Below, one piece after another: positions 7,114-44,751 of a DNA stretch of 64,000 nt. The DNA comes from Escherichia phage BUCT632. A program made the translations under genes and the position numbers. Location of the stretch: sequence record PQ488502.1. One strand, written 5' to 3'. Each line of letters starts with the position of its first letter. Within the stretch, counting starts at the first letter, position 1. Under the pieces are notes generated by a model. That model made no database searches. It was not told the DNA's origin and worked only from the letters and a program-made list of their open reading frames with translations.

Positions 7114-7563
7114 ATGAAGGCAGCTTTGCTTTTAGTAGCTGCCCTTACCTTCAGCTTTAGTAGTCAGGCATCGCACGATGCAAAAGAAATAGATTGCATT
7201 GCTAAAAATATCTATTTCGAGAGTCGTGGTGAGGGCATAAAGGGAATGACGGCGATTGCACATGTTACTAAAAACCGTGTAAACTCCGGTAAATTCCCAG
7301 ATTCCTACTGTAAAGTAGTATATCAGTCTAACCAGTTCTCTTGGGTATCTAAGAGACCAAAAGTTGATAAAACCGATGAGGCTTGGCAAACAGCCAAGAA
7401 TTTAGCTAGAGTGATATACTACGTTGATTTACCACAAGATCCTACACATGGAGCACTATACTTCCATAGTGGTAAAGATAAACCTTATTGGACAAAGAAG
7501 TTTAAGAAAACAACTAAGATTAAGGGACATACGTTTTATAAACCTGTTGTCACTAAAACTTAA
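7114..7563 (+). CDS. SleB-like cell wall hydrolase domain protein with signal peptide
   Basis: N-terminal signal-like MKAALLLVAALTFSFSSQA; SleB-like stretch NIYFESRGEG...AIAHVTKNRV...YQSNQFSWV; ATG at 7114 with AGGAG RBS (track start 7096 is TTG). Confidence 0.6.
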   Translation: MKAALLLVAALTFSFSSQASHDAKEIDCIAKNIYFESRGEGIKGMTAIAHVTKNRVNSGKFPDSYCKVVYQSNQFSWVSKRPKVDKTDEAWQTAKNLARVIYYVDLPQDPTHGALYFHSGKDKPYWTKKFKKTTKIKGHTFYKPVVTKT

Positions 7564-8289: not shown

Positions 8290-9079
8290 TAAATTAGGGA
8301 ACAGCGAGCCGATTACGCTGAGTGCAGAATCCCAACCGGAGCGCATTGAATAGAGTCGGTGGGTTAGTTGTAAAACTAGTACACAGGGGGCGGCAATCCC
8401 GGTTAGTGGCTAGAACGTGTAAAATGAGGCGTCTGAAACCTCTCCCCTAAACTCTTCTCTAATTTATAAATAGTGGGGTGTGGAAATCACTTATGTAGTA
8501 ACACTGCCGTCCTAGTATAATTGGTATTATCAAGCCGTAACTGGTGGAAGATGTAGGTTCGAATCCTACGGTCGGTAAGAACTGGATAACTGATGCTTTT
8601 AACGTAAAAGCTTCCGAGGTTAGTTGCGCACTGCCTAAACCACGCGGTAGTTGGTTCCAGACTAACCAACCAGTCTGCTGAATAGTTTTATTACGATTTA
8701 ACTATGTCCAGGCTAAAGAAGAACTTTAGAAGGTATTCTAGGATAGTGAAGTTCTTTCTCCATATCGGAGTAGTTTTTCAAGCTATCCACAAAGTGGGAA
8801 ATGCTGACATGAGAGATGTCACTAATGGTGCACAATAGCACAGGTAATTCGCGATAACTCCTGTTGAGTAGCAGCAAAAGGCGGGAAGTCATGACCCCAA
8901 GCCTAACCGAGTCCTCAATATACCGCAGGATATAACCACTAAGTCACCCTGACTTAAACTGGAAAATAATAGACGTTACCGTATTTTGTCTTGAAATACT
9001 TAATGAGTGAGACTTATGACTCTCCCGGTATCGTCTGTATTTTTAAGAGTTTTTACGAGAGTTCTTAAAAATACTTAAA
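8290..9079 (+). ncRNA. Promoter-driven ORF-free region; candidate structured non-coding RNA(s) or degenerate tRNA
   Basis: no plus-strand ORF of 60 aa or more; T-arm-like hairpin GTAGG-TTCGAAT-CCTAC at 8553-8569 with acceptor-like pairing 8506-8512/8570-8576 but no anticodon arm; several local hairpins. Confidence 0.3.
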
Positions 9080-13906: not shown

Positions 13907-13942
13907 CTAATACAGCATTGGGCAAGTTCTTTAAAATTTGAC

Positions 13943-13971
13943 TTGCTCAGTGCCTTAAAACTTGATATAAT
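13943..13971 (+). promoter_or_regulatory. PN25-type sigma70 promoter ahead of hairpin and tRNA-Tyr
   Basis: TTGCTC 13943-13948, 17-nt spacer, TATAAT 13966-13971. Confidence 0.55.
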
Positions 13972-13990
13972 AGTTATCTAATTTGGAAAC

Positions 13991-14095
13991 ATATCTGAAT
14001 GAGAAGTAATTAGGCGAGTTGCTTTTAGGGGTAAAGTCAGGAAATCCTGAAATATTCCACCTTGAGTTTAACCGACTTACTTTTCATTCAAATAT
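13991..14095 (+). other. Long hairpin (about 19-bp closing stem) abutting the tRNA-Tyr 5' end; candidate RNase III processing site or small structured RNA
   Basis: 5' arm ATATCTGAATGAGAAGTAA (13991-14009) pairs with 3' arm TTACTTTTCATTCAAATAT (14077-14095), one mismatch and one G-U. Confidence 0.45.
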
Positions 14096-14176
14096 GGGGG
14101 ATTGGCTCAGCGGCGACGGCGCCTGGCTGTAGACCGGGTATATCACGCGGAGGTTCGAGTCCTCCATCCCCCACCA
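14096..14176 (+). tRNA. tRNA-Tyr (anticodon GUA), type II
   Basis: acceptor GGGGGAT/ATCCCCC, anticodon arm CCTGG-CTGTAGA-CCGGG, long variable arm, T-arm GGAGG-TTCGAGT-CCTCC, CCA. Confidence 0.7.
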
Positions 14177-14194
14177 AATTACTAAGGAAGTAAT

Positions 14195-14740
14195 ATGCAC
14201 AATAAGTTAATAAATGAGCTTCAAAAAAGACAGATAATAACAAAAACTAAGGAGTTTGATATAACTCCAGATTTAATAGTTGAATGCTCGAAAGTTTACT
14301 TAGAGTTAAGTAATACAAAGGCTAAGAAAGTCTCCTTAGGAGATCTTAGATATAATGTTAAACTATTGTGCTTATCCTTAATTAAATTTAAGCAAAAAAA
14401 TAAACTTCCCATAAAAGAAGGCTTCATATATTTTATAGCAAATAAGGCCTGGCCCAATTATTTTAAGATTGGTATGTCAGCTAACCCAAAGAAACGCTTA
14501 GCAAACTATCAAACATATAGCCCTTTTAGGGACTATACAATGCTACACTGGTCTTTCTGGTTTGATAGAAAGGAAGGCAAAAAGTTTGTCCATAGCCTCT
14601 ATCAAGATAGGGATCATGAATGGGTTAAGTTGCCTCGAAGAAAACTAAATAAAATATTTGAACAAATTAATAAACTTTCTGGCTTGGAACATTTAGTACA
14701 GAAAGTTAATAAAGAAATAGTTAATGCACCTATCGTCTAA
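14195..14740 (+). CDS. T5orf172-domain protein (GIY-YIG-related, MUG113-like)
   Basis: motif GFIYFIANKAWPNYFKIGMSANPKKRLANYQTYSP matches the T5orf172-type core; 3' end overlaps tRNA-Glu by 15 nt. Confidence 0.55.
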   Translation: MHNKLINELQKRQIITKTKEFDITPDLIVECSKVYLELSNTKAKKVSLGDLRYNVKLLCLSLIKFKQKNKLPIKEGFIYFIANKAWPNYFKIGMSANPKKRLANYQTYSPFRDYTMLHWSFWFDRKEGKKFVHSLYQDRDHEWVKLPRRKLNKIFEQINKLSGLEHLVQKVNKEIVNAPIV

Positions 14741-14800
14741 TGGTTAGGACATCAGGATTTCAATCTGAGAATCGGAGTTCAATTCTCCGTGGGTGTACCA
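14726..14800 (+). tRNA. tRNA-Glu (anticodon UUC)
   Basis: acceptor GCACCTA/TGGGTGT with G-U pairs, D-stem GTCT/GGAC, anticodon arm TCAGG-ATTTCAA-TCTGA, T-arm CGGAG-TTCAATT-CTCCG, CCA. Confidence 0.65.
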
Positions 14801-14808
14801 ATTTCTGC

Positions 14809-14885
14809 ATTCCTAGAGTGTTACTGGACAGCATGTCGGTCTCCAAAACCGTACGGTCTAGGTTCGAGTCCTAGTAGGTTTGCCA
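14809..14885 (+). tRNA. tRNA-Trp (anticodon CCA), with U-U mismatches in acceptor stem
   Basis: T-arm CTAGG-TTCGAGT-CCTAG, anticodon loop CTCCAAA on CGGT/ACCG stem, D-stem GTGT/GCAT, CCA; acceptor ATTCCTA/TAGGTTT has two U-U. Confidence 0.5.
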
Positions 14886-14891
14886 AAATTT

Positions 14892-14966
14892 GCACCTTTA
14901 GCTGAGATGGATTAGCGCTTGCCTGAAGAGCTTGAGAGGTTCGTTCGATACGAACAGGGTGCACCA
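14892..14966 (+). tRNA. tRNA-Phe (anticodon GAA), with U-U mismatches in anticodon stem
   Basis: acceptor GCACCTT/AGGGTGC, D-stem GCTG/TAGC, anticodon loop CTGAAGA, T-arm GTTCG-TTCGATA-CGAAC, CCA. Confidence 0.5.
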
Positions 14967-14983
14967 AATTGAAGGAGCTGCTG

Positions 14984-15256
14984 ATGCATCCTGAAAACTT
15001 CTTTATTTACTGCGCGGATAAGTCGCTGAAACGTAGAATTAACAAAGTCTATCATTATCGTGCTAGTCAACAGCCTTATGTATACGCTTTTGACGGTGAT
15101 CACATTCCACTAGAACAATTATCTTGTGATTACATGATATTGAAGAACTTTGACGAGACGAAGATCTCAAGCGTTCATAATCGACAGAATCCATTAACGT
15201 GGAAATATAAGAAGAAAAAGAAAGGCATCAAATTCTTAAAAAATGTAGTTGCTTAG
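14984..15256 (+). CDS. Hypothetical protein
   Basis: ORF from ATG 14984; lysine-rich C-terminus; low confidence. Confidence 0.3.
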   Translation: MHPENFFIYCADKSLKRRINKVYHYRASQQPYVYAFDGDHIPLEQLSCDYMILKNFDETKISSVHNRQNPLTWKYKKKKKGIKFLKNVVA

Positions 15257-15277
15257 TTTCCAAAAGTTCTGTATAAT
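15249..15277 (+). promoter_or_regulatory. PN25-type sigma70 promoter
   Basis: TTGCTT 15249-15254, 17-nt spacer, TATAAT 15272-15277. Confidence 0.6.
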
Positions 15278-15325
15278 AATTACATAAATTGAACTGGAGA
15301 AGCAACATGACAGAACAAGATAAAT

Positions 15326-15401
15326 CGACCGTTGGCTGAATGGCTTAGGCGAAGGATTGCAAATCCTTTTTATGTGAGTTCAAATCTCATGCGGTCGTCC
15401 A
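15326..15401 (+). tRNA. tRNA-Cys (anticodon GCA)
   Basis: acceptor CGACCGT/GCGGTCG, anticodon arm AAGGA-TTGCAAA-TCCTT, T-arm GTGAG-TTCAAAT-CTCAT, CCA. Confidence 0.75.
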
Positions 15402-15402
15402 A

Positions 15403-15547
15403 TTTGCTGAAAGAATTGTTAAATCAATTCAGGCACGCGTAGGAACACTGTCTCCGTAATTGAAAGATGGGGCACGGTTTGGAGAGGTATGCCGCTACAC
15501 GCTACGGTGCTAACTCCGTCTAGGTGAAAATCCTAGTCAGCAATGTA
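15403..15547 (+). other. Structured ORF-free element closed by a 7-bp long-range stem with T-arm-like hairpin; candidate ncRNA or degenerate tRNA
   Basis: TTGCTGA (15403-15409) pairs with TCAGCAA near 15540; hairpin CTAGG-TGAAAAT-CCTAG just before the 3' arm. Confidence 0.3.
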
Positions 15548-15553
15548 AATTTA

Positions 15554-15635
15554 GGGTCGTTAGCCAAGCGGTTTGGCGGCGGATTGTTAATCCGTGTCGA
15601 AAGACAACGTAGGTTCGAATCCTACACGGCCCGCC
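15554..15635 (+). tRNA. tRNA with GUU anticodon (Asn) and unusually long variable arm
   Basis: acceptor GGGTCGT/ACGGCCC, anticodon arm GCGGA-TTGTTAA-TCCGT, 13-nt variable arm GTC-GAAA-GAC, T-arm GTAGG-TTCGAAT-CCTAC, G73, CCA. Confidence 0.6.
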
Positions 15636-15738
15636 AAATTCTGTGTAGAGTTAAGTAAACCGGTAGCCAATCAGCTATCATTGCTGACATCGAATTCAGC
15701 CACAGATACCATTTTCATTAATAACTGAGGAAACAAGC

Positions 15739-15924
15739 ATGTCCAAGAATGTAATTGCACAGTTAGAAGTTCATCGTGATAGCACTATCAACAATATTGA
15801 AGTTGAGAAGAAATACATCGAAGAACTTAAACATGATATACTAGTAAGTCTTAATCGTCTTAATGTACGAAAAGAGTTTCTTAAAGAACTTAATGCAGCT
15901 ATTGAAAAACTCAAAGCTGAGTAA
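15739..15924 (+). CDS. Hypothetical small coiled-coil protein
   Basis: 61-aa ORF with GAGGAAA RBS. Confidence 0.4.
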   Translation: MSKNVIAQLEVHRDSTINNIEVEKKYIEELKHDILVSLNRLNVRKEFLKELNAAIEKLKAE

Positions 15925-15933
15925 ATGAATTAT

Positions 15934-16010
15934 GCGACCGGGGCTGGCTTGGTAATGGTACTCCCCTGTCACGGGAGGGAATGTGGGTTCAAATCCCATC
16001 GGTCGCGCCA
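15934..16010 (+). tRNA. tRNA-Asp (anticodon GUC)
   Basis: acceptor GCGACCG/CGGTCGC, anticodon arm CTCCC-CTGTCAC-GGGAG, T-arm GTGGG-TTCAAAT-CCCAT, CCA. Confidence 0.8.
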
Positions 16011-16036
16011 AACTAAACTAGCACGAGAAAAATGCT

Positions 16037-16384
16037 ATGATTAATGCTAAAGAAGAATTGTTACTTGCCCTAAAGAATACTAATTCTGAAGTTAAGTGTA
16101 TTAAGATAGAATTCGGTTATTATGGGGACAAAGAAGTTTGGGTATTACCCGTAGGTTATACAGAAAAAGATATTGAAGATTTTCTAAATAATCTAGACTT
16201 TAAATATGATTCTGGTTTCGGTGGACAATTGCTTTATGGTAACGTATGGTTTACTGATGGAACTTGGTTAGAACGTGGTGAATATGATGGTTCTGAATGG
16301 TGGGAGTATAAGACTACACCAGCAATCCCTGAGGAATGCCGAACAATTAATGGTGAGGTAGATAATACTTTACGGTTAAACTAA
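16037..16384 (+). CDS. Hypothetical protein
   Basis: 115-aa ORF between tRNA genes. Confidence 0.45.
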   Translation: MINAKEELLLALKNTNSEVKCIKIEFGYYGDKEVWVLPVGYTEKDIEDFLNNLDFKYDSGFGGQLLYGNVWFTDGTWLERGEYDGSEWWEYKTTPAIPEECRTINGEVDNTLRLN

Positions 16385-16506
16385 TAAAATTTCAGTGCAG
16401 AACACGGAGCTAGCAATTCGGAAGTGCTGACTCATGATAAGCTGCCTATGTACTTGCGAAGCGGTCGTGTCCAAGACTCGGACTCTTGCACTGAAAACAA
16501 TCAAAC

Positions 16507-16627
16507 ATTCTAGCGTGGTTGATGGGGAAACCAGCTTGGCGAGGGCAGAAGCTCGTTCGATTCGAGTGAAAGAATGGTTCTCGTAAGTCCGCACAAGTGA
16601 TAACAGGTTCGAGTCCTGTCTAGAATG
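16507..16627 (+). tRNA. Oversized tRNA-like gene (121 nt) with about 55-nt insertion in the anticodon loop; no encoded CCA
   Basis: acceptor ATTCTAG/CTAGAAT, D-arm TGGT-TGATGGGGAA-ACCA, anticodon-stem-like pairing GCTTG(16534-16538)/CAAGT(16594-16598) enclosing 55 nt, T-arm ACAGG-TTCGAGT-CCTGT. Confidence 0.4.
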
Positions 16628-16635
16628 ACACTATA

Positions 16636-16763
16636 AAGTTTACTTATTATGTAGGTTCCGGTAGATCGGCGGGTCTATTCTGGCATTTAAGAGGGGTCTC
16701 GCAAACTTCTTTGTCAGCCGTGGGGTTGGTAGCCTCCAGGCGGCCTACACAATAAGTAAATTT
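16636..16763 (+). other. Long hairpin (about 20-bp closing stem enclosing about 88 nt); candidate small structured RNA or RNase III site
   Basis: AAGTTTACTTATTATGTAGG (16636-16655) pairs with CCTACACAATAAGTAAATTT (16744-16763). Confidence 0.45.
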
Positions 16764-16776
16764 ATTAAAAATTCAT

Positions 16777-16805
16777 TTGCTATTCTGCTTAATTCTCTGT
16801 ATAAT
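16777..16805 (+). promoter_or_regulatory. PN25-type sigma70 promoter
   Basis: TTGCTA 16777-16782, 17-nt spacer, TATAAT 16800-16805. Confidence 0.6.
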
Positions 16806-17000
16806 ATATTTTATAAAGTGAAGAGAAGGAAAGCAAAATGAAACACAAGATAGCTCAAGTTTTTATGGCATTATGGTGTATGCCAATAGCTGTAACAGCT
16901 TTTAATCTAGATACTTTTACTATAGAAGAAAAATGTATCGGATTAGTTAGCGGCTTTAGTATGCTTGGCTTATCTTTGTTGTGGTTGAAGAAATAATATT

Positions 17001-17078
17001 CTCCGTGTAGCTCAGTTTGGCCAGAGCGTTTCGTTTGGGGCGATAGGGTCGGGGGTTCAAATCCTCCCACGGAGACCA
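17001..17078 (+). tRNA. tRNA-Pro (anticodon UGG)
   Basis: acceptor CTCCGTG/CACGGAG, D-stem GCTC/GAGC, anticodon loop TTTGGGG, T-arm GGGGG-TTCAAAT-CCTCC, CCA. Confidence 0.65.
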
Positions 17079-17084
17079 AACAAT

Positions 17085-17162
17085 TGCGGGTTAGATCTCT
17101 GGTAGAGATCGCTAGTCTCATAAGCTAGAAAGAGGTAGGTTCGATTCCTGCACCCGCTTCCA
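17085..17162 (+). tRNA. tRNA with CAU anticodon (Met or Ile2)
   Basis: D-arm GATC-TCTGGTAGA-GATC, anticodon arm CTAGT-CTCATAA-GCTAG, T-arm GTAGG-TTCGATT-CCTGC, CCA. Confidence 0.65.
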
Positions 17163-17351
17163 TTTTAATAGGGGATTTCGAAATGAAAGTATTTCGATTA
17201 GTAGTAAGTGACAAACGTTTAGGTAAGAATACCTCAAAATCATTACTTGCTCATTATGGTAAAAATTGGGATGAAGTAATGGTAGAGTTTAATACTAATC
17301 ACCCTTACTTGAAAGTTCACTCTATTAAAGAAGTATACAATGGTTACTAAT

Positions 17352-17430
17352 AGATCGCTAGCTCAATAGGTTTAGTAGCATCCGACTTTTAATCGGAAGG
17401 TTCTGGGTTCGAGTCCCAGGCGATCTACCA
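17352..17430 (+). tRNA. tRNA-Lys (anticodon UUU)
   Basis: acceptor AGATCGC/GCGATCT, anticodon arm TCCGA-CTTTTAA-TCGGA, T-arm CTGGG-TTCGAGT-CCCAG, CCA. Confidence 0.8.
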
Positions 17431-17448
17431 ATTTCAAGAAAAACGCAG

Positions 17449-17477
17449 TTGCTTGATGCTTAATTTCTTGTTATAAT
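17449..17477 (+). promoter_or_regulatory. PN25-type sigma70 promoter ahead of structured RNA and tRNA-Ala
   Basis: TTGCTT 17449-17454, 17-nt spacer, TATAAT 17472-17477. Confidence 0.6.
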
Positions 17478-17516
17478 ATTTATATAAATTGATGAGGAGA
17501 AATCCTCATCATAGTT

Positions 17517-17701
17517 CACTAAGGTATTAGCTCGACCTAGGACTGGCTGCCAAAAAGCACGATCCCCATGATTCGGGAGAAGTTCTAGATTGGTCCACTA
17601 GATTCAGCGGCAACTGAATAGTGTATTGGGTTTGCGAGATGACGCAGTTCCTTCCGCTCGAAGCGAAGGTGCTGTAGTTACGCCGAGCTAATAGCCTTAG
17701 T
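17517..17701 (+). other. Structured ORF-free element closed by about 17-bp long-range stem (one bulge); candidate ncRNA or RNase III processing domain
   Basis: ACTAAGGTATTAGCTCG (17517-17534) pairs with CGAGCTAATAGCCTTAGT (17684-17701); internal hairpins. Confidence 0.4.
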
Positions 17702-17715
17702 AAACTAAAGAATTT

Positions 17716-17794
17716 GGGGAATGGGTCTGCATGGAGTGGACACCTCGCTTGCACCGAGGACATCAGAACGGTTCGATTCCGTTATTCTCCACCA
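17716..17794 (+). tRNA. tRNA-Ala (anticodon UGC)
   Basis: acceptor GGGGAAT/ATTCTCC, anticodon arm CCTCG-CTTGCAC-CGAGG, T-arm AACGG-TTCGATT-CCGTT, CCA. Confidence 0.75.
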
Positions 17795-17799
17795 AATAC

Positions 17800-17876
17800 G
17801 CGTGATTGATGGAATTGGCATACATACCGTCCTTAGAAGTCGGGTTTTGAGGGTTCGAATCCCTTGTCACGCACCA
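17800..17876 (+). tRNA. tRNA with UAG anticodon (Leu by anticodon) and short variable arm
   Basis: acceptor GCGTGAT/GTCACGC, anticodon arm CCGTC-CTTAGAA-GTCGG, T-arm GAGGG-TTCGAAT-CCCTT, A73, CCA. Confidence 0.55.
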
Positions 17877-17987
17877 AATTTGATGGTCAGAGTAAATTAA
17901 ACCTACTATCTCGGTTGAGCTGTTTTAATGGGTTCGAATCCCAGCGAGGCGTAACTGCCTGGTGTGATAGAGGCATCATCTTATTAT

Positions 17988-18078
17988 TGGAAGAGCAAAT
18001 CGAATTGGCGACGAAAACCGCTTGGAAAGTGGCTGACTGGTAAAACGGCTTGAGAGTTCAAATCTCTCCTCTTCCGCC
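17988..18078 (+). tRNA. tRNA-Ser (anticodon GGA), type II
   Basis: acceptor GGAAGAG/CTCTTCC, D-stem TCG/CGA, anticodon loop TTGGAAA, long variable arm, T-arm GAGAG-TTCAAAT-CTCTC, CCA. Confidence 0.6.
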
Positions 18079-18098
18079 AAACACTTGAGGTAATAATA

Positions 18099-18446
18099 AT
18101 GCTAGCAAAAGATAAAGCTCTAGAGTTTTTAGCATCTTTAGATGAAGATAAGATTATAGATGCTGCTGAAAAAGCTGGAATGCCAGATTTAACATATCTG
18201 GAACGTGCTATTATTGCTCGTGATAAACTACAGAAAGAGTTTGCTATTGCTCAGGAGGAGTTTTATACTCGCTATAACGCTCTTACTAAGCAAATTGAAA
18301 ATGAGTGTTCTCATACTTGGGGAGTAACAGAAAACCTAGGTAATGATCACGATGGCTGGTCTAAAGTAAAAATTACCTACTACCATCGTAGGACTTGTAA
18401 AATTTGTGGAAAAGTAGAAAACTTCACTAGTACGAGTGACTATTAG
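18099..18446 (+). CDS. Hypothetical protein with C-terminal zinc-ribbon-like Cys/His cluster
   Basis: 115-aa ORF; CSHTWG...HRRTCKICGKVE. Confidence 0.45.
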   Translation: MLAKDKALEFLASLDEDKIIDAAEKAGMPDLTYLERAIIARDKLQKEFAIAQEEFYTRYNALTKQIENECSHTWGVTENLGNDHDGWSKVKITYYHRRTCKICGKVENFTSTSDY

Positions 18447-18459
18447 TATAATAAATACT

Positions 18460-18549
18460 AGAAGATAGGACGTAGTGGTATGTAACTGGTCTTGAAAACC
18501 AGCCCGCTGTAGTGATACGGTGATGGTTCGACTCCATTATCTTCTGCCA
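18460..18549 (+). tRNA. tRNA-Ser (anticodon UGA), type II
   Basis: acceptor AGAAGAT/ATCTTCT, anticodon arm CTGGT-CTTGAAA-ACCAG, long variable arm, T-arm GATGG-TTCGACT-CCATT, CCA. Confidence 0.75.
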
Positions 18550-18569
18550 ATTAACTATAAGGAAATCTT

Positions 18570-18743
18570 ATGAGCAAAACAGTTACTGTAACAATGAAGG
18601 ATGGTAAAAAATTTAAAGCATGTCTTCATGAAACAGATAAGGGATGGATGGCTTATTTGCCACACCTAGATTCCACCGGGTACGGAATGACCCAACGTGA
18701 AGCTATTGTTGATGCTTTAAATGAGGCTTCTGCTGGTTTATAA
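18570..18743 (+). CDS. Hypothetical small protein
   Basis: 57-aa ORF with AAGGAAA RBS, below the ORF-track length cutoff. Confidence 0.3.
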   Translation: MSKTVTVTMKDGKKFKACLHETDKGWMAYLPHLDSTGYGMTQREAIVDALNEASAGL

Positions 18744-18750
18744 AAATTCT

Positions 18751-18882
18751 TGAAGTATGCCGGAATTGGTAGACGGGGCTGCCTAAAAGGTTTATAGAGA
18801 ACATCCACTCTCTACAACATACCTCATAAAGCGGCTGAGATAAATGGTCTATCTCGTGAAGGTTCAAGTCCTTCTGCTTCTT
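18751..18882 (+). tRNA. Oversized tRNA-like gene (132 nt, Leu-like D-arm, type II variable arm) with 48-nt insertion in anticodon loop; no encoded CCA
   Basis: acceptor TGAAGTA/TGCTTCT, D-region CCGGAATTGGTAGACGG, anticodon-stem GCTGC(18778-18782)/GCGGC(18831-18835) enclosing 48 nt with internal hairpin, variable-arm hairpin GAGATA/TATCTC, T-arm GAAGG-TTCAAGT-CCTTC. Confidence 0.4.
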
Positions 18883-18996
18883 GATACATCTATGGCTCAA
18901 AGTGTAACGGTGCTATTTGATGCTCTTAGTAAGACTTCCCCGACATGCGTTCGGGAGTAAGCTGCTAAGGCTAGAGTAGAAGAGTTTCTGAGAGCC

Positions 18997-19116
18997 GCCA
19001 CAATTGAAAATTCGTACTCGTCTTGAGCTGCGTGCAATAGGAGATAACTTGATTAGTATTCTAGAACATGCTAATTGAGGAAGGTTTCGCTAACCCTGCG
19101 AGTTTTCAATTGTGGC
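18997..19116 (+). other. Long-range 14-bp stem whose 3' arm overlaps the tRNA-His 5' end; candidate processing hairpin
   Basis: GCCACAATTGAAAA (18997-19010) pairs perfectly with TTTTCAATTGTGGC (19103-19116). Confidence 0.4.
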
Positions 19117-19188
19117 TATATTATAATTGGTTAATGATCCTGATTGTGAATCAGGCCTATGTGGATTCGAATTCCACTAGCCACCCCA
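19112..19188 (+). tRNA. tRNA-His (anticodon GUG)
   Basis: acceptor GTGGCTA/TAGCCAC, anticodon arm CCTGA-TTGTGAA-TCAGG, T-arm GTGGA-TTCGAAT-TCCAC, CCA. Confidence 0.75.
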
Positions 19189-19580: not shown

Positions 19581-19588
19581 AATAATAA

Positions 19589-19664
19589 GCGGTTAAGCAC
19601 ACGGGTTGTGTCGCAGGCCTTCCAAGCCTCGCTGAGTAGGGTTCGATTCCCTCTAGCCGCTCCA
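19589..19664 (+). tRNA. tRNA-Gly (anticodon UCC)
   Basis: acceptor GCGGTTA/TAGCCGC, anticodon arm AGGC-CTTCCAA-GCCT, T-loop TTCGATT, CCA. Confidence 0.65.
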
Positions 19665-30767: not shown

Positions 30768-31631
30768 ATGAAAAAAGAATTTAATGTACATAAAACTCTA
30801 GTAGTGCCTGATGACGCCAACTTATTTTTCGTTGGTGATATTCATGGATGCAATGATTTGCTAGAAGATGCGTTGAAATTAGCAGGGTATAATGGCAAAA
30901 AAGATTGCTTAGTATGTGTTGGTGACTTAATTGACCGAGGCACACAAAACCTACAAGTTTTAGCCAAATTCCTGTATAATCCACATTTTATCAGTGTCCG
31001 TGGTAATCATGACCAATTTATGATTGCAGGAGATTGGGCTAATTGGATGTATAACGGTGGTATGTGGGCTATGGATGAGCTGGATGCAGACACCATTAAA
31101 AATATTGCCGAAGATATGGCTGAAAAAATGCCAGTATTCCTAACTGTTAGACATCGTGGTAAGAAGTATGGTGTTGTTCACGGTGGCGTACCTTTTACGT
31201 ACAAAGAATGTGGTAATGAAGTAGAAACCCCAATATGGGATAATCTTATTGCACAAGTAGAAGCAGCTAAGGAAGACCCACATGACCATCCTGGATACCA
31301 TATTGAACCATATTTATGGGATCGAGATGTAATCCAAGAAATAGGCTTCTACTTGTCCAAAAATGGTGAAGAACACCCGTATTTCCAGCGTTATGCAGGA
31401 TTTAAAGAAAAATATATGGTAGAAGTGCCAGAGGTTAAAGGGGTAGATTTCGTATTTCACGGACATACTGGGGTTCCTTACCCACTTCTTTATAAAAACC
31501 GTGTTTATCTTGATACTGGCGGTGTTTTCAACGGGCAGTTGACGATTGCGCAAGTTAATGATGAAACGGGTAAAATCACCACATTTACTACACTCCGGGA
31601 AGATAGCTGTGGTGTACAGAGGGTTCTTTAA
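30768..31631 (+). CDS. Serine/threonine protein phosphatase (PPP-family metallophosphatase)
   Basis: motifs GDIHG, GDLIDRG, GNHD in canonical order. Confidence 0.75.
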   Translation: MKKEFNVHKTLVVPDDANLFFVGDIHGCNDLLEDALKLAGYNGKKDCLVCVGDLIDRGTQNLQVLAKFLYNPHFISVRGNHDQFMIAGDWANWMYNGGMWAMDELDADTIKNIAEDMAEKMPVFLTVRHRGKKYGVVHGGVPFTYKECGNEVETPIWDNLIAQVEAAKEDPHDHPGYHIEPYLWDRDVIQEIGFYLSKNGEEHPYFQRYAGFKEKYMVEVPEVKGVDFVFHGHTGVPYPLLYKNRVYLDTGGVFNGQLTIAQVNDETGKITTFTTLREDSCGVQRVL

Positions 31632-43872: not shown

Positions 43873-44751
43873 TAGGAAAATTTCATTTTTGCTTTTGGGG
43901 ATAAGTTATCAACAAGGCTAGAATGCGCCTAAAACGCCCTAGAACGCGATGAAGTTTTTAGCCATCCCATCATAAGGGGATAGGCCGTTTATCGCTGCCA
44001 CGAGCTTTTTGGATTTTGTCAAGTAGGGCAAAGCAAATATAAATGAAAAAATTACTTGCCTATCTGCTTTATTTTGTGGTATTCGCGCGCCCGTTTCTTT
44101 TAATTTTAGGCCATCGCCGCACGGTGTCCGGTGAGTTTTGTCTTTACGTTTCTTTACAAAAATAAGGTTGCGCCATTTTCGGGAATCCCCTATTATTTAT
44201 CACGTAGGGCGGCAATGACGAACTACACGGCGGGAAGTTTACCGCCACGCTCTTTAAAAATTGGGTACATCTTAAAGCCTATCGGCGGTAAACTTATACA
44301 TTATAAGGAATCGACGATATGAAACAAACGCTTTTGATCACTGGCAAGCCTATTAAGGCACTAGATAGCAAAACAAAAAATTTGTTGACAGTAGCTCAAA
44401 GATCAGTAAAATATAGATTCACGCAGTACAAGAAAGGCCGCCAGCAAGGTTTAGAAATGATCTGGCGCAATATTATGATTGACCTGAAGGAAAATCATAA
44501 AAAATTGCAAAAAATTGTTTGACACCCTAGCCGATAGGCTTTAAGATGTACTCAGTTCGATAAGAGCGATAACTTGATAAAATTTGACGGTCGGTGCTTA
44601 CCATAATGCATCCCGCCCCCTAACGGGATATAGCGGCCTACGTGGAGTTCTTTAAATTGATTATAGCGGCGGGAGGATTGTTACTTATTACCTGCTAGTA
44701 TTTTCTAGTAGGTAATGCGGAACAATCCCCAAATAACTAGGAGTTTATACT

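What the first reader, a model, noticed from the sequence alone, without database searches (positions are those of the whole stretch)
13991..19116. Family of long hairpins and closed structured domains flanking tRNA genes
At least five ORF-free elements sit between promoters and tRNAs, each closed by an unusually long duplex: 13991-14095 (19 bp, abuts tRNA-Tyr), 15403-15547 (7 bp plus T-arm-like hairpin), 16636-16763 (20 bp), 17517-17701 (about 17 bp), 18997-19116 (14 bp, 3' arm overlaps tRNA-His 5' end). A shorter 12-bp stem at 9036-9074 precedes tRNA-Arg. Duplexes of this length are typical RNase III substrates, so they may be processing sites for polycistronic tRNA precursors; alternatively they are stable small RNAs.
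Basis: partly seen in the sequence, partly recalled or inferred. Interest (0 to 1): 0.6.

Follow-up and report, generated by a model that had tools for sequence, protein, structure and literature searches.

The report
Phage T5-type stable RNAs, RNase III helices
The long hairpins are real, conserved RNA structures in the tRNA gene cluster of a T5-like phage; most are the "stable RNAs of unknown function" already annotated in phage T5, and their long closing helices look like cutting sites for the host enzyme RNase III that release the neighbouring tRNAs.

Summary
The window is the early tRNA region of a T5-like phage (Tequintavirus). All the described stems exist and fold far better than shuffled sequence. 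Three of the five elements are 95-99% identical orthologues of RNAs that RefSeq annotates in T5 and BF23 as "stable RNA with unknown functions": RNAIV (E3), RNA2H (E4) and RNAIII (E5). E1 is the structured 5' leader of the tRNA-Tyr operon. E2 is an unannotated tRNA-shaped RNA, also present in Klebsiella T5-like phages and Klebsiella Mydovirus. They are not one homologous family. E1, E3, E4, E5 and the pre-tRNA-Arg hairpin share a 17-22 bp terminal helix. This helix is the most conserved sequence in the region (99.5-99.9% identity for four of the five; not reliably measured for E5). In front of tRNA-Tyr and tRNA-His it is kept by compensatory changes while the enclosed cargo is swapped. The RNA ends annotated in T5 lie inside these helices with exact 2-nt 3' overhangs (RNAIII, RNA2H), which is the RNase III signature. 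Best reading: RNase III processing modules of polycistronic tRNA transcripts, whose excised cores persist as stable RNAs. The enzyme assignment is inferred, and any trans function remains unknown. Largely already known; moderate interest.

The parts
9037..9074 (+). 17-bp A/U-rich hairpin ending 5 nt before tRNA-Arg(UCU). It is the 3' end of the T5 'RNAX' region.
   Evidence: Fold (z -4.4). 100% identical in 20 or more T5-like loci. 68% identical to the hairpin abutting tRNA-Tyr in Klebsiella phage Roth49, with the same length and the same ACGA loop.
13925..13999 (+). Orthologue of T5 early promoter P14a, which drives E1 and tRNA-Tyr.
   Evidence: 97% match to the promoter feature annotated in NC_005859.
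13990..14095 (+). E1: structured 5' leader of the tRNA-Tyr operon. A 19-20 bp stem whose 3' arm ends at position -1 of tRNA-Tyr, with a small branched apex.
   Evidence: Folds. Not annotated as an RNA in T5. A hairpin at the same place occurs in all T5-like phages examined, in three sequence versions (105, 44-46 and 38 nt). 10 of 18 pairs show compensatory changes, reached by 0 of 500 shuffles.
14096..14176 (+). tRNA-Tyr(GUA), directly abutted by E1.
15404..15544 (+). E2: tRNA-shaped RNA. It has a 7-bp acceptor-like stem, 2 nt, a D-like hairpin, 1 nt, a 10-bp helix carrying two hairpins, an 8-nt linker, then a T-like arm (5 bp, loop UGAAAAU) stacked on the acceptor. No CCA is encoded.
   Evidence: Consensus folds, with compensatory changes in the acceptor, D, long and T helices across three sequence types. 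Present in Klebsiella T5-like phages at another site, and in Klebsiella Mydovirus between two tRNA-Ser genes. In T5 the same spacer holds a T5orf172/MUG113-domain ORF instead. No Rfam hit.
16636..16763 (+). E3: full helix-closed precursor form of RNAIV. A 13-bp A/U-rich outer stem, an A-C mismatch, an 8-bp inner stem, and three hairpins.
   Evidence: 99.4% of cells paired, 9 pairs compensatory, reached by 0 of 500 shuffles. The outer stem is 99.6% identical across 27 loci.
16649..16751 (+). Orthologue of mature T5 RNAIV (103 nt), annotated 'stable RNA with unknown functions'.
   Evidence: Ungapped 95% match. Annotation. The ends lie at the mismatch inside the helix, with about a 1-nt 3' overhang.
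17490..17511 (+). 9-bp hairpin at the 5' end of the transcript from the P13b promoter, just before E4.
   Evidence: z -3.7. Promoter mapping.
17518..17701 (+). E4: helix-closed precursor form of RNA2H. A 17-bp closing helix with one bulge and several inner hairpins.
   Evidence: 99.7% paired, 10 pairs and 63 cells compensatory. The 3' hairpin is wholly re-written with compensation. The second hairpin is enlarged by 22-25 nt in Epseptimavirus. The closing stem is 99.6% identical across 29 loci.
17525..17696 (+). Orthologue of mature T5 RNA2H (172 nt).
   Evidence: Ungapped 96.5% match. The 5' end pairs with 17694 and the 3' end is 17696, giving a 2-nt 3' overhang in both the window and T5.
18894..19000 (+). 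Orthologue of T5 RNAI (107 nt). It has a tRNA-like terminus: a 5-bp closing stem followed by GCCA. Its last 4 nt form the start of the E5 helix.
18997..19116 (+). E5: 20-bp helix that pairs the 3' end of RNAI (GCCACA) with the 5' end of tRNA-His (UGUGGC) and encloses RNAIII.
   Evidence: z -6.0. In Epseptimaviruses the same outer 12 bp enclose unrelated cargos of 78 or 135 nt. The inner 8 bp differ but stay paired: 98% paired, 6 pairs compensatory.
19005..19110 (+). Orthologue of mature T5 RNAIII (106 nt).
   Evidence: Ungapped 99% match. The 5' end pairs with 19108 and the 3' end is 19110, giving a 2-nt 3' overhang.
19112..19188 (+). tRNA-His(GUG). Its first 5 nt lie in the 3' arm of the E5 helix. 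The nucleotide at -1 is U, not G.

Best explanation
These are RNA-level elements of the early, host-RNA-polymerase-transcribed tRNA operons of a T5-like phage. E3, E4 and E5 are the T5 stable RNAs RNAIV, RNA2H and RNAIII. E1 is the tRNA-Tyr leader. E2 is a separate tRNA-shaped RNA gene that is processed like the tRNAs around it.

The long terminal helices (E1, E3, E4, E5 and the pre-tRNA-Arg hairpin) most likely act as double-strand cleavage sites for host RNase III. The enzyme would bind the two-turn helix and cut both strands about 10-12 bp from the inner junction, with a 2-nt stagger. This would detach the upstream RNA (for E5, the tRNA-like RNAI with a 4-nt trailer). It would free the downstream tRNA with a short or no leader for RNase P. 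It would also release the enclosed domain, which survives as a 'stable RNA' because 10-12 bp of helix still seal its ends.

Shown here: the structures, their conservation and covariation, the identity with the T5 RNAs, and the position of the annotated ends.

Inferred: that RNase III makes the cuts, and that processing is the selected function. Whether the excised cores also act in trans is unknown.
For: 1. Identity. Megablast places the window in Tequintavirus. RNAIII, RNA2H and RNAIV of NC_005859 map ungapped at 95-99% onto E5, E4 and E3. The same RNAs are annotated in BF23.

2. Real RNA structures. MFE z-scores are -3.6 to -6.0. The + strand is favoured. Covariation supports the folds: RNAIV has 9 compensatory pairs, RNA2H 10 pairs and 63 cells, both beyond all 500 shuffles and beyond the slid controls.

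3. The helix, not the cargo, is the constant part. tRNA-Tyr is preceded by a 17-20 bp hairpin ending at -1 in every T5-like phage examined. It comes in three versions (105, 44-46 and 38 nt), with 10 of 18 pairs compensatory. tRNA-His is preceded by a helix overlapping its 5' end that encloses three unrelated cargos (120, 78 and 135 nt), with 6 compensatory pairs.

4. The closing stems are the most conserved sequence in the region. Those of E1, E3, E4 and the pre-Arg hairpin are 99.5-99.9% identical. tRNA genes are 94.6%, codon position 2 is 95.4% and codon position 3 is 81.8%.

5. End geometry. The annotated ends of RNAIII and RNA2H lie inside uninterrupted helices, opposite each other, with exactly 2-nt 3' overhangs and 12 and 10 bp of helix retained. 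RNAIV has about 1 nt. A 2-nt 3' overhang is the characteristic RNase III product (PMC3867540). A single RNase III recognition unit spans about 11 bp (PMC1540722). E. coli has no 5' exonuclease (established knowledge), so a 5' end inside a duplex needs a double-strand-specific endonuclease.

6. The base pairs flanking the inferred cuts in E5 and E3 are A-U/U-A.
Against: - No cleavage data were available here. I do not know how the T5 annotators fixed the RNA ends. That the ends are not at the helix bases suggests experiment, but this is my inference.
- RNAIV shows a 1-nt, not a 2-nt, overhang.
- In E4 two G-C pairs lie between the staggered cuts. The proximal/distal-box register could not be assigned, so antideterminants were not excluded.
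- The inner folds of RNAIV and RNA2H are themselves maintained by compensatory changes. A pure spacer would not need that.
- In some Epseptimaviruses the RNA2H homologue is followed by an ORF rather than tRNA-Ala.
- T5 mutants deleted for most of this region grow on laboratory hosts (PMC11464382), so none of it is essential.
- The 99.5-99.9% stem conservation does not cover E5. One search gave 95.4% for its stem, a figure I consider unreliable because loci with other cargo types were aligned there.
Confidence: 0.6

Rival explanations
1. The functional parts are the enclosed domains. RNAIII, RNAIV, RNA2H and E2 would be trans-acting RNAs, for example tRNA-shaped decoys or sponges for host proteins or tRNA-targeting defence nucleases. 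The long helix would serve only to make them nuclease-resistant.
For: - They accumulate as stable RNAs in T5 and BF23 (annotation).
- The inner helices of RNAIV and RNA2H covary, and some loops are invariant. One example is the 7-nt loop CUCGCAA of RNAIV.
- E2 is an independent cassette found at different sites and in a second phage family.
- RNAI and RNA3 end in CCA like tRNAs.
- T5 tRNAs are known to neutralise tRNA-cleaving defences (PMC11464382; PMC10644984).
Against: - For E1 and E5 the enclosed domain is replaced by unrelated or much smaller sequence while the helix is kept.
- No partner, target complementarity or known family was found. There was no Rfam hit at E<=10 and no E. coli homologue.
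- The region is dispensable in the laboratory.
- This explanation is not exclusive of the processing model.
Confidence: 0.25
2. The hairpins are end-protecting structures only. RNase P and RNase E would make the cuts, and the hairpins would block 3' exonucleases on the upstream fragment or shield 5' ends. RNase III would not be involved.
For: - E1, the pre-Arg hairpin and E5 end exactly at, or within 5 nt of, an RNase P site. After RNase P cleavage they would sit at the 3' terminus of the upstream RNA.
- The P13b transcript also starts with a small hairpin.
Against: - This does not explain 5' ends located 7-13 bp inside perfect helices, or the 2-nt stagger.
- It does not explain why stems of 17-22 bp are kept when 8-10 bp would protect an end.
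Confidence: 0.1
3. They are transcription terminators or attenuators, DNA-level inverted repeats (cruciforms, recombination or homing-endonuclease sites), or unrecognised small ORFs.
For: - Some GenBank records annotate 'hypothetical protein' over E4, E5 or E2.
- Arms this long also pair on the - strand.
- The region is mosaic and rich in homing-endonuclease genes.
Against: - No G+C-rich stem followed by a U-run was found at any element.
- Many G-U pairs make the + strand fold markedly better.
- Length differences between homologues are not multiples of three (185/186/208-210 nt; 128/126/122 nt). Substitutions follow base-pairing, not codons.
- T5 records them as RNAs.
Confidence: 0.04

Closest known systems
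Phage T5 / BF23 small stable RNAs RNAI, RNAIII, RNAIV and RNA2H, and the tRNA-like RNA1, RNA2 and RNA3 (misc_RNA features of NC_005859 and NC_042564)
   Same: E3, E4 and E5 are their orthologues: 95-99% identical, same order, same neighbouring tRNAs and promoters. E2 resembles the 'tRNA-like' members in kind.
   Different: E1 (the tRNA-Tyr leader hairpin), E2 and a conserved 121-nt closed domain at 16385-16505 are not annotated in T5. T5 has a T5orf172-domain ORF where E2 sits. The records give no structure, processing or function.
Phage T4 species 1 and species 2 RNAs (rnaC, rnaD) in the T4 tRNA cluster
   Same: Small stable RNAs of unknown function, encoded next to phage tRNA genes. rnaC folds into a tRNA-like shape with a canonical T arm and expansions.
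   Different: No sequence or covariance-model similarity. The T4 RNAs are not closed by 17-22 bp helices.
RNase III processing helices: the stems flanking 16S and 23S rRNA in rrn operons, the T7 early-mRNA sites such as R1.1, and the RNase III site upstream of T4 tRNA-Gln (the rRNA and T4 examples are from my own knowledge)
   Same: A helix formed by sequences flanking a structured RNA. Staggered cuts leave 2-nt 3' overhangs, releasing the enclosed RNA and its neighbours (PMC3867540, PMC1540722).
   Different: Here the enclosed RNAs are only 40-170 nt and the helices directly touch or overlap tRNA 5' ends. Enzyme dependence is untested. The T4 tRNA-Gln leader hairpin is only about 11 bp and lies 13 nt from the tRNA.
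Bacterial Y RNAs (YrlA): a tRNA-like module plus a long stem formed by the two ends
   Same: A long terminal stem closing a multi-branched, partly tRNA-like domain.
   Different: No Rfam match at E<=10. In E2 the RNA termini are at the acceptor-like stem, not at the opposite end. No Ro/Rsr gene was noticed in the region's annotation tables or ORF list; I did not search for one.

Membership tests
T5 stable RNAs RNAIII / RNA2H / RNAIV | Full-length sequence identity to the annotated T5 RNA | tested here: met
   Ungapped matches: 106/106 nt at 99%, 172/172 nt at 96.5%, 103/103 nt at 95%.
T5 stable RNAs RNAIII / RNA2H / RNAIV | Same genomic context: promoters P13a and P13b, tRNA-His, tRNA-Ala, RNAI and RNA2 as neighbours | tested here: met
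T5 stable RNAs RNAIII / RNA2H / RNAIV | Accumulates as a discrete stable RNA in infected cells | not testable with these tools
   This rests on the depositors' annotation only. The primary papers were not in the searchable library.
E. coli RNase III substrate | Regular double helix of about two turns (at least one 11-bp recognition unit) | tested here: met
   Helices of 17-22 bp. 10-12 bp are retained on the inner side of the inferred cuts. The 11-bp unit is from PMC1540722.
E. coli RNase III substrate | Cuts on both strands staggered to give 2-nt 3' overhangs | tested here: met
   Exactly 2 nt for RNAIII and RNA2H in both the window and T5, and about 1 nt for RNAIV, using the T5 annotated ends. 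The origin of those ends is unknown to me.
E. coli RNase III substrate | No antideterminant G-C/C-G pairs at proximal-box positions 2 and 4 | tested here: inconclusive
   A-U pairs flank the cuts in E5 and E3. In E4, G-C pairs lie between the cuts. The box register could not be fixed from the text available.
E. coli RNase III substrate | Cleavage depends on rnc | not testable with these tools
   Needs an experiment.
tRNA (Rfam RF00005), for E2 | Scores above threshold with the tRNA covariance model | tested here: not met
   No tRNA hit on 15404-15544 at E<=10.
tRNA (Rfam RF00005), for E2 | Cloverleaf topology: a 7-bp acceptor, 2 nt, D arm, 1 nt, central arm, then a T arm of 5 bp with a 7-nt loop stacked on the acceptor | tested here: met
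   Consensus fold with compensatory changes in all four helices across three sequence types.
tRNA (Rfam RF00005), for E2 | Conserved D-loop GG and T-loop UUC elbow, a 7-nt anticodon loop, and a CCA end | tested here: not met
   The D loop is UUAAAU and the T loop is UGAAAAU. The central arm is a 10-bp helix bearing two hairpins. No CCA is encoded.
Y RNA / 6S RNA / tmRNA / other curated RNA families | Match to the family covariance model | tested here: not met
   Nothing but tRNAs and chance-level hits at E<=10 in three focused scans and one regional scan.
Intrinsic terminator | G+C-rich stem followed by a U-run | tested here: not met
   No such site coincides with any closing helix. The only hit inside the elements is a weak 5-bp site within E5.

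The most novel reading that the evidence does not exclude
The helices are interchangeable 'launch cassettes'. The phage lineage would use them to express and stabilise a changing set of small, partly tRNA-shaped RNAs (RNAIII, RNAIV, RNA2H, E2 and the alternative cargos in Epseptimavirus and Klebsiella phages). These RNAs would act in trans as decoys for tRNA-targeting or RNA-sensing bacterial immune nucleases, complementing the known anti-defence role of T5 tRNAs.

A narrower variant concerns tRNA-His. The helix in front of it would serve as a ruler that lets RNase III, not RNase P, set the 5' end one nucleotide upstream of G+1. This would give the phage tRNA-His an extra 5' nucleotide (U-1) that its sequence cannot retain through a G-1:C73 pair.
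Probability: 0.12. Interest if true: 0.7.

Novelty: already known. Interest (0 to 1): 0.38.

Why it matters
What the small stable RNAs in phage tRNA clusters do (T4 species 1 and 2; T5 RNA I-IV) has, to my knowledge, been open for decades; the T5 and BF23 records still list their functions as unknown.

This analysis gives them covariation-backed structures. It shows that the constant, most strongly selected part is the terminal helix touching tRNA-Tyr, tRNA-His and tRNA-Arg. It also yields a simple, testable processing model: RNase III cuts at named phosphodiester bonds.

It shows that many GenBank 'hypothetical protein' calls in this region of T5-like genomes lie on RNA genes.

T5 tRNAs are now known to defeat tRNA-cleaving defence systems. 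How these tRNAs are released quickly from early transcripts, and whether the co-released RNAs help, is therefore of practical interest for phage-host work and for phage therapy with T5-like phages.

Tried and rejected
- **Rfam.** One gathering-threshold scan and four permissive scans found no family for any element. This rejects Y RNA, 6S RNA, tmRNA and riboswitch readings.
- **Covariance model of RNAIV (R1).** Searched against the window, Klebsiella T5-like, Mydovirus, T4 and unrelated viral loci. It found no paralogue and no distant homologue, so the five elements are not one homologous family.
- **BLAST of all elements against 5,426 complete E. coli genomes.** No match, so they are not host-derived.
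- **Exact-motif scan of IMG/VR for the E2 core.** It returned only T5-like and Mydovirus contigs plus four coincidental coding matches.
- **Literature.** Seven full-text searches found no paper in the library describing these RNAs or T5 RNA-seq data. One search retrieved only the RNase III rules papers. The 1970s-80s primary papers are not held.
- **Loop complementarity.** A 7-nt complementarity between the RNAIV loop (CUCGCAA) and RNA2H (UUGCGAG) was dropped. It is expected by chance, and the RNA2H side changes in Epseptimavirus without a matching change.
- **MAFFT alignment of E2.** MAFFT mis-aligns the Mydovirus E2 acceptor stem. I read that stem by eye.
- **E5 conservation figure.** The per-position identity for E5 is depressed because loci with other cargo types were aligned there. 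I did not use it.
- **Terminator, DNA-cruciform and small-ORF readings.** Considered and rejected; see the rival explanations.

Full report
**What the window is.** The 13-20 kb stretch matches 642 phage records. The best are Tequintavirus (T5-like) genomes at 95-99% identity. ARAGORN and Rfam find 22-24 tRNA genes, all on the + strand, between 8.5 and 21 kb. This is the early tRNA region of a T5-like phage.

| Element | Interval | Closing stem | z-score |
|---|---|---|---|
| E1 | 13991-14095 | 5+14 bp | -4.6 |
| E2 | 15403-15547 | 7 bp | -2.2 |
| E3 | 16636-16763 | 13+8 bp | -5.4 |
| E4 | 17517-17701 | 8+9 bp, one bulge | -3.6 |
| E5 | 18997-19116 | 20 bp including G-U pairs; 3' arm overlaps tRNA-His | -6.0 |
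| pre-tRNA-Arg hairpin | 9037-9074 | 17 bp | -4.4 |

Among the 25 tRNAs of the window, only Arg, Tyr and His have at least 14 uninterrupted bp ending within 8 nt of their 5' end. The rest have 5-10 bp. The + strand folds better than the - strand in all five elements, most clearly for E3 and E5, because of G-U pairs.

**What they are: identity.** The RefSeq record of T5 (NC_005859) annotates eight misc_RNA genes in this region, described as "stable RNA with unknown functions" or "tRNA-like stable RNA". The BF23 tRNA-region record carries the same set. Mapping them onto the window gives ungapped, full-length matches:

| T5 RNA | Window interval | Relation to the finding |
|---|---|---|
| RNAIII | 19005-19110 | inside E5 |
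| RNA2H | 17525-17696 | inside E4 |
| RNAIV | 16649-16751 | inside E3 |
| RNA1 | 18749-18893 | not in the finding |
| RNA2 | 16506-16630 | not in the finding |
| RNA3 | 15639-15711 | not in the finding |
| RNAX | 8450-9079 | ends with the pre-tRNA-Arg hairpin |

- E1 corresponds to the unannotated 96-nt gap between promoter P14a and tRNA-Tyr.
- E2 has no counterpart in T5. There the Cys-Asn spacer holds ORF T5.069, a T5orf172/MUG113-domain protein.

Three of the five elements are therefore already known as stable RNAs. None has a match in Rfam, even at E<=10 in short focused scans. None has a relative in 5,426 E. coli genomes.

**Comparative evidence for RNAIV and RNA2H.** I collected the region from 22 Tequintavirus contigs, eight Epseptimavirus genomes and a Klebsiella T5-like phage.

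- For RNAIV (24 distinct sequences), 99.4% of pair cells are paired and 9 pairs carry compensatory changes. This exceeds all 500 shuffles and all slid controls.
- For RNA2H (28 sequences), 99.7% are paired, with 10 pairs and 63 cells compensatory.
- In RNA2H the 3' hairpin is entirely re-written with pairing kept. Another hairpin is enlarged by 22-25 nt in Epseptimavirus.
- Length differences are not multiples of three, which argues against coding.

The closing helices hardly vary at all.

**How strongly the closing helices are conserved.** Figures are identity across 30 loci.

| Sequence class | Identity |
|---|---|
| Closing stems of E1, E3, E4 and the pre-Arg hairpin | 99.5-99.9% |
| tRNA genes | 94.6% |
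| Second codon positions | 95.4% |
| Third codon positions | 81.8% |

**The helix is the constant part; the cargo is not.** E1 and E5 looked invariant among their BLAST-detectable homologues. I therefore examined phages that seemed to lack them.

- Upstream of tRNA-Tyr, every T5-like phage examined has a 17-20 bp hairpin whose 3' arm ends at position -1.
- That hairpin comes in three versions: the 105-nt branched form (the window, T5), a plain 44-46-nt hairpin (many Tequinta- and Epseptimaviruses) and a 38-nt hairpin in Klebsiella phage Roth49.
- Aligned by distance from the tRNA, 97% of cells pair and 10 of 18 pairs show changes on both sides, reached by 0 of 500 shuffles.
- Upstream of tRNA-His, Epseptimaviruses that lack RNAIII still have a 20-bp helix.
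- That helix starts in the GCCA end of an RNAI-like RNA and ends in UGUGGC of tRNA-His. It encloses unrelated cargos of 78 or 135 nt.
- Its inner 8 bp differ between types but stay paired: 98% paired, 6 compensatory pairs.
- The Klebsiella pre-tRNA-Tyr hairpin is 68% identical to the window's pre-tRNA-Arg hairpin, with the same length and loop. A small hairpin module has therefore moved between tRNAs.

A covariance model of RNAIV finds no paralogue in the window and no homologue in the more distant loci. The elements form a functional class, not a homologous family.

**E2 is a different object.**

- Its consensus fold is a cloverleaf.
- In order, it has a 7-bp acceptor-like stem, two nucleotides, a D-like hairpin, one nucleotide, and a 10-bp helix bearing two hairpins.
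- An 8-nt linker follows, then a 5-bp T-like arm with the invariant loop UGAAAAU stacked on the acceptor.
- Compensatory changes occur in all four helices among three sequence types.
- It sits in tRNA arrays with tRNA-like spacing.
- In Klebsiella T5-like phages it lies between tRNA-Tyr and tRNA-Lys.
- In Klebsiella Mydovirus (Vequintavirinae) it lies between two tRNA-Ser genes.
- It lacks the D-loop/T-loop elbow nucleotides, an anticodon loop and an encoded CCA.
- It does not score as a tRNA.
- It belongs with the "tRNA-like stable RNAs" of T5 (RNA1, RNA2, RNA3) and T4 species 1 RNA. It is an unannotated member of that known kind.

**How the helices most likely work.**

- The ends annotated in T5 do not lie at the bases of the helices but inside them.
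- For RNAIII, the 5' end (19005) pairs with 19108 and the 3' end is 19110.
- For RNA2H, the 5' end (17525) pairs with 17694 and the 3' end is 17696.
- Both give exactly 2-nt 3' overhangs, in the window and in T5 itself. They leave 12 and 10 bp of helix on the RNA.
- RNAIV has its 5' end at a mismatch inside the helix and about a 1-nt overhang.
- Staggered cuts with 2-nt 3' overhangs are the hallmark of RNase III (PMC3867540). One recognition unit spans about 11 bp (PMC1540722).
- E. coli has no 5' exonuclease (established knowledge). A 5' end inside an uninterrupted duplex therefore points to a double-strand-specific endonuclease.

In the E5 case one such cut would do three things:
- leave RNAI with a 4-nt trailer to be trimmed to its CCA end;
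- release RNAIII;
- leave tRNA-His with at most one extra nucleotide.

Which steps are shown and which inferred:
- The structures, their conservation and the position of the annotated ends are shown here.
- The enzyme, and the assumption that the annotated ends are experimental, are inferences.
- I could not fix the proximal/distal-box register, so antideterminant base pairs were not excluded.

**What remains open.**

- The inner folds of RNAIV and RNA2H are maintained by compensatory changes. E2 travels as an independent cassette. A trans function such as decoy or sponge is therefore not excluded.
- I found no target, partner or family.
- T5 mutants lacking most of the region grow on laboratory hosts (PMC11464382).
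- Terminator, DNA-level and small-ORF readings are poorly supported.

**Verdict.** The core of the finding re-discovers RNAs already annotated in T5 and BF23.

New here:
- the structural models;
- the cargo-swapping helices at tRNA-Tyr, tRNA-His and tRNA-Arg;
- the RNase III end geometry;
- the E2 RNA shared with a second phage family.

Noticed in passing
window 16385-16505: A 121-nt ORF-free segment between an ORF and RNA2. It is closed by an 11-12 bp stem (about 16390-16401 with 16485-16496) and is 98.5% identical across 21 loci.
   Followed up: partly
window 13916-13955: A 12-14 bp inverted repeat (GCAYTGRGCAAGT ... ACTTGCYCARTGC) whose 3' arm contains the -35 hexamer TTGACT of promoter P14a. 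It is present in all T5-like loci. It could be an end hairpin for the upstream ORF transcript or an operator.
   Followed up: no
window 19111-19116, and tRNA-His 19112-19188: The phage tRNA-His has U, not G, at position -1, so no G-1:C73 pair is possible. The T5 record nevertheless annotates a 78-nt tRNA that includes this U.
   Followed up: partly
window 18894-19000 and 15639-15711: RNAI ends in GCCA after a 5-bp closing stem, and RNA3 ends in ACCA. Both therefore carry tRNA-like 3' termini.
   Followed up: partly
window 17877-18075, 8506-8577, 18751-18882, 19588-19661: Degenerate or unusual tRNA-like sequences.
- 17877-18075: T-arm remnants and a truncated tRNA-Ser-like piece.
- 8506-8577: a weak tRNA hit (35 bits).
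- 18751-18882: RNA1, which scores as a tRNA with a roughly 55-nt insertion (25 bits).
- 19588-19661: a likely tRNA-Gly missed by ARAGORN.
   Followed up: partly
window 14195-14740; T5 locus L002 8007-8525 (- strand): T5orf172/MUG113-domain ORFs (GIY-YIG-related, probably mobile) occupy different inter-tRNA spacers in different phages. In T5 one sits exactly where E2 lies in this phage.
   Followed up: partly
L046 6166-6278 (Klebsiella phage Roth49): Another helix-closed, multi-branched domain between tRNA-Arg and tRNA-Gln, with a 10-bp stem CUCUGCUGAG/CUCAGCAGAG and z -3.9. It has no sequence similarity to the window's elements. Closed domains therefore seem general in tRNA regions of T5-like phages.
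   Followed up: no
L042 7419-7625 (gmork_122); Stokescottia and other GenBank records over E2, E4 and E5: 'Hypothetical protein' CDS annotations overlap the RNA elements in several GenBank genomes. These are probably mis-annotations.
   Followed up: no
window 44248-44286 with 44530-44568; also 7312-7330 with 7407-7425 and 31246-31264 with 31345-31363: Other long-range inverted repeats outside the tRNA region: 39-nt arms at 85% complementarity 243 nt apart, and 19-nt arms at 89% about 80 nt apart. Not examined.
   Followed up: no
window 16698-16704 and 17632-17638: The invariant 7-nt loop CUCGCAA of RNAIV is exactly complementary to UUGCGAG in RNA2H. This is probably chance, because the RNA2H side changes in Epseptimavirus while the RNAIV loop does not.
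   Followed up: partly
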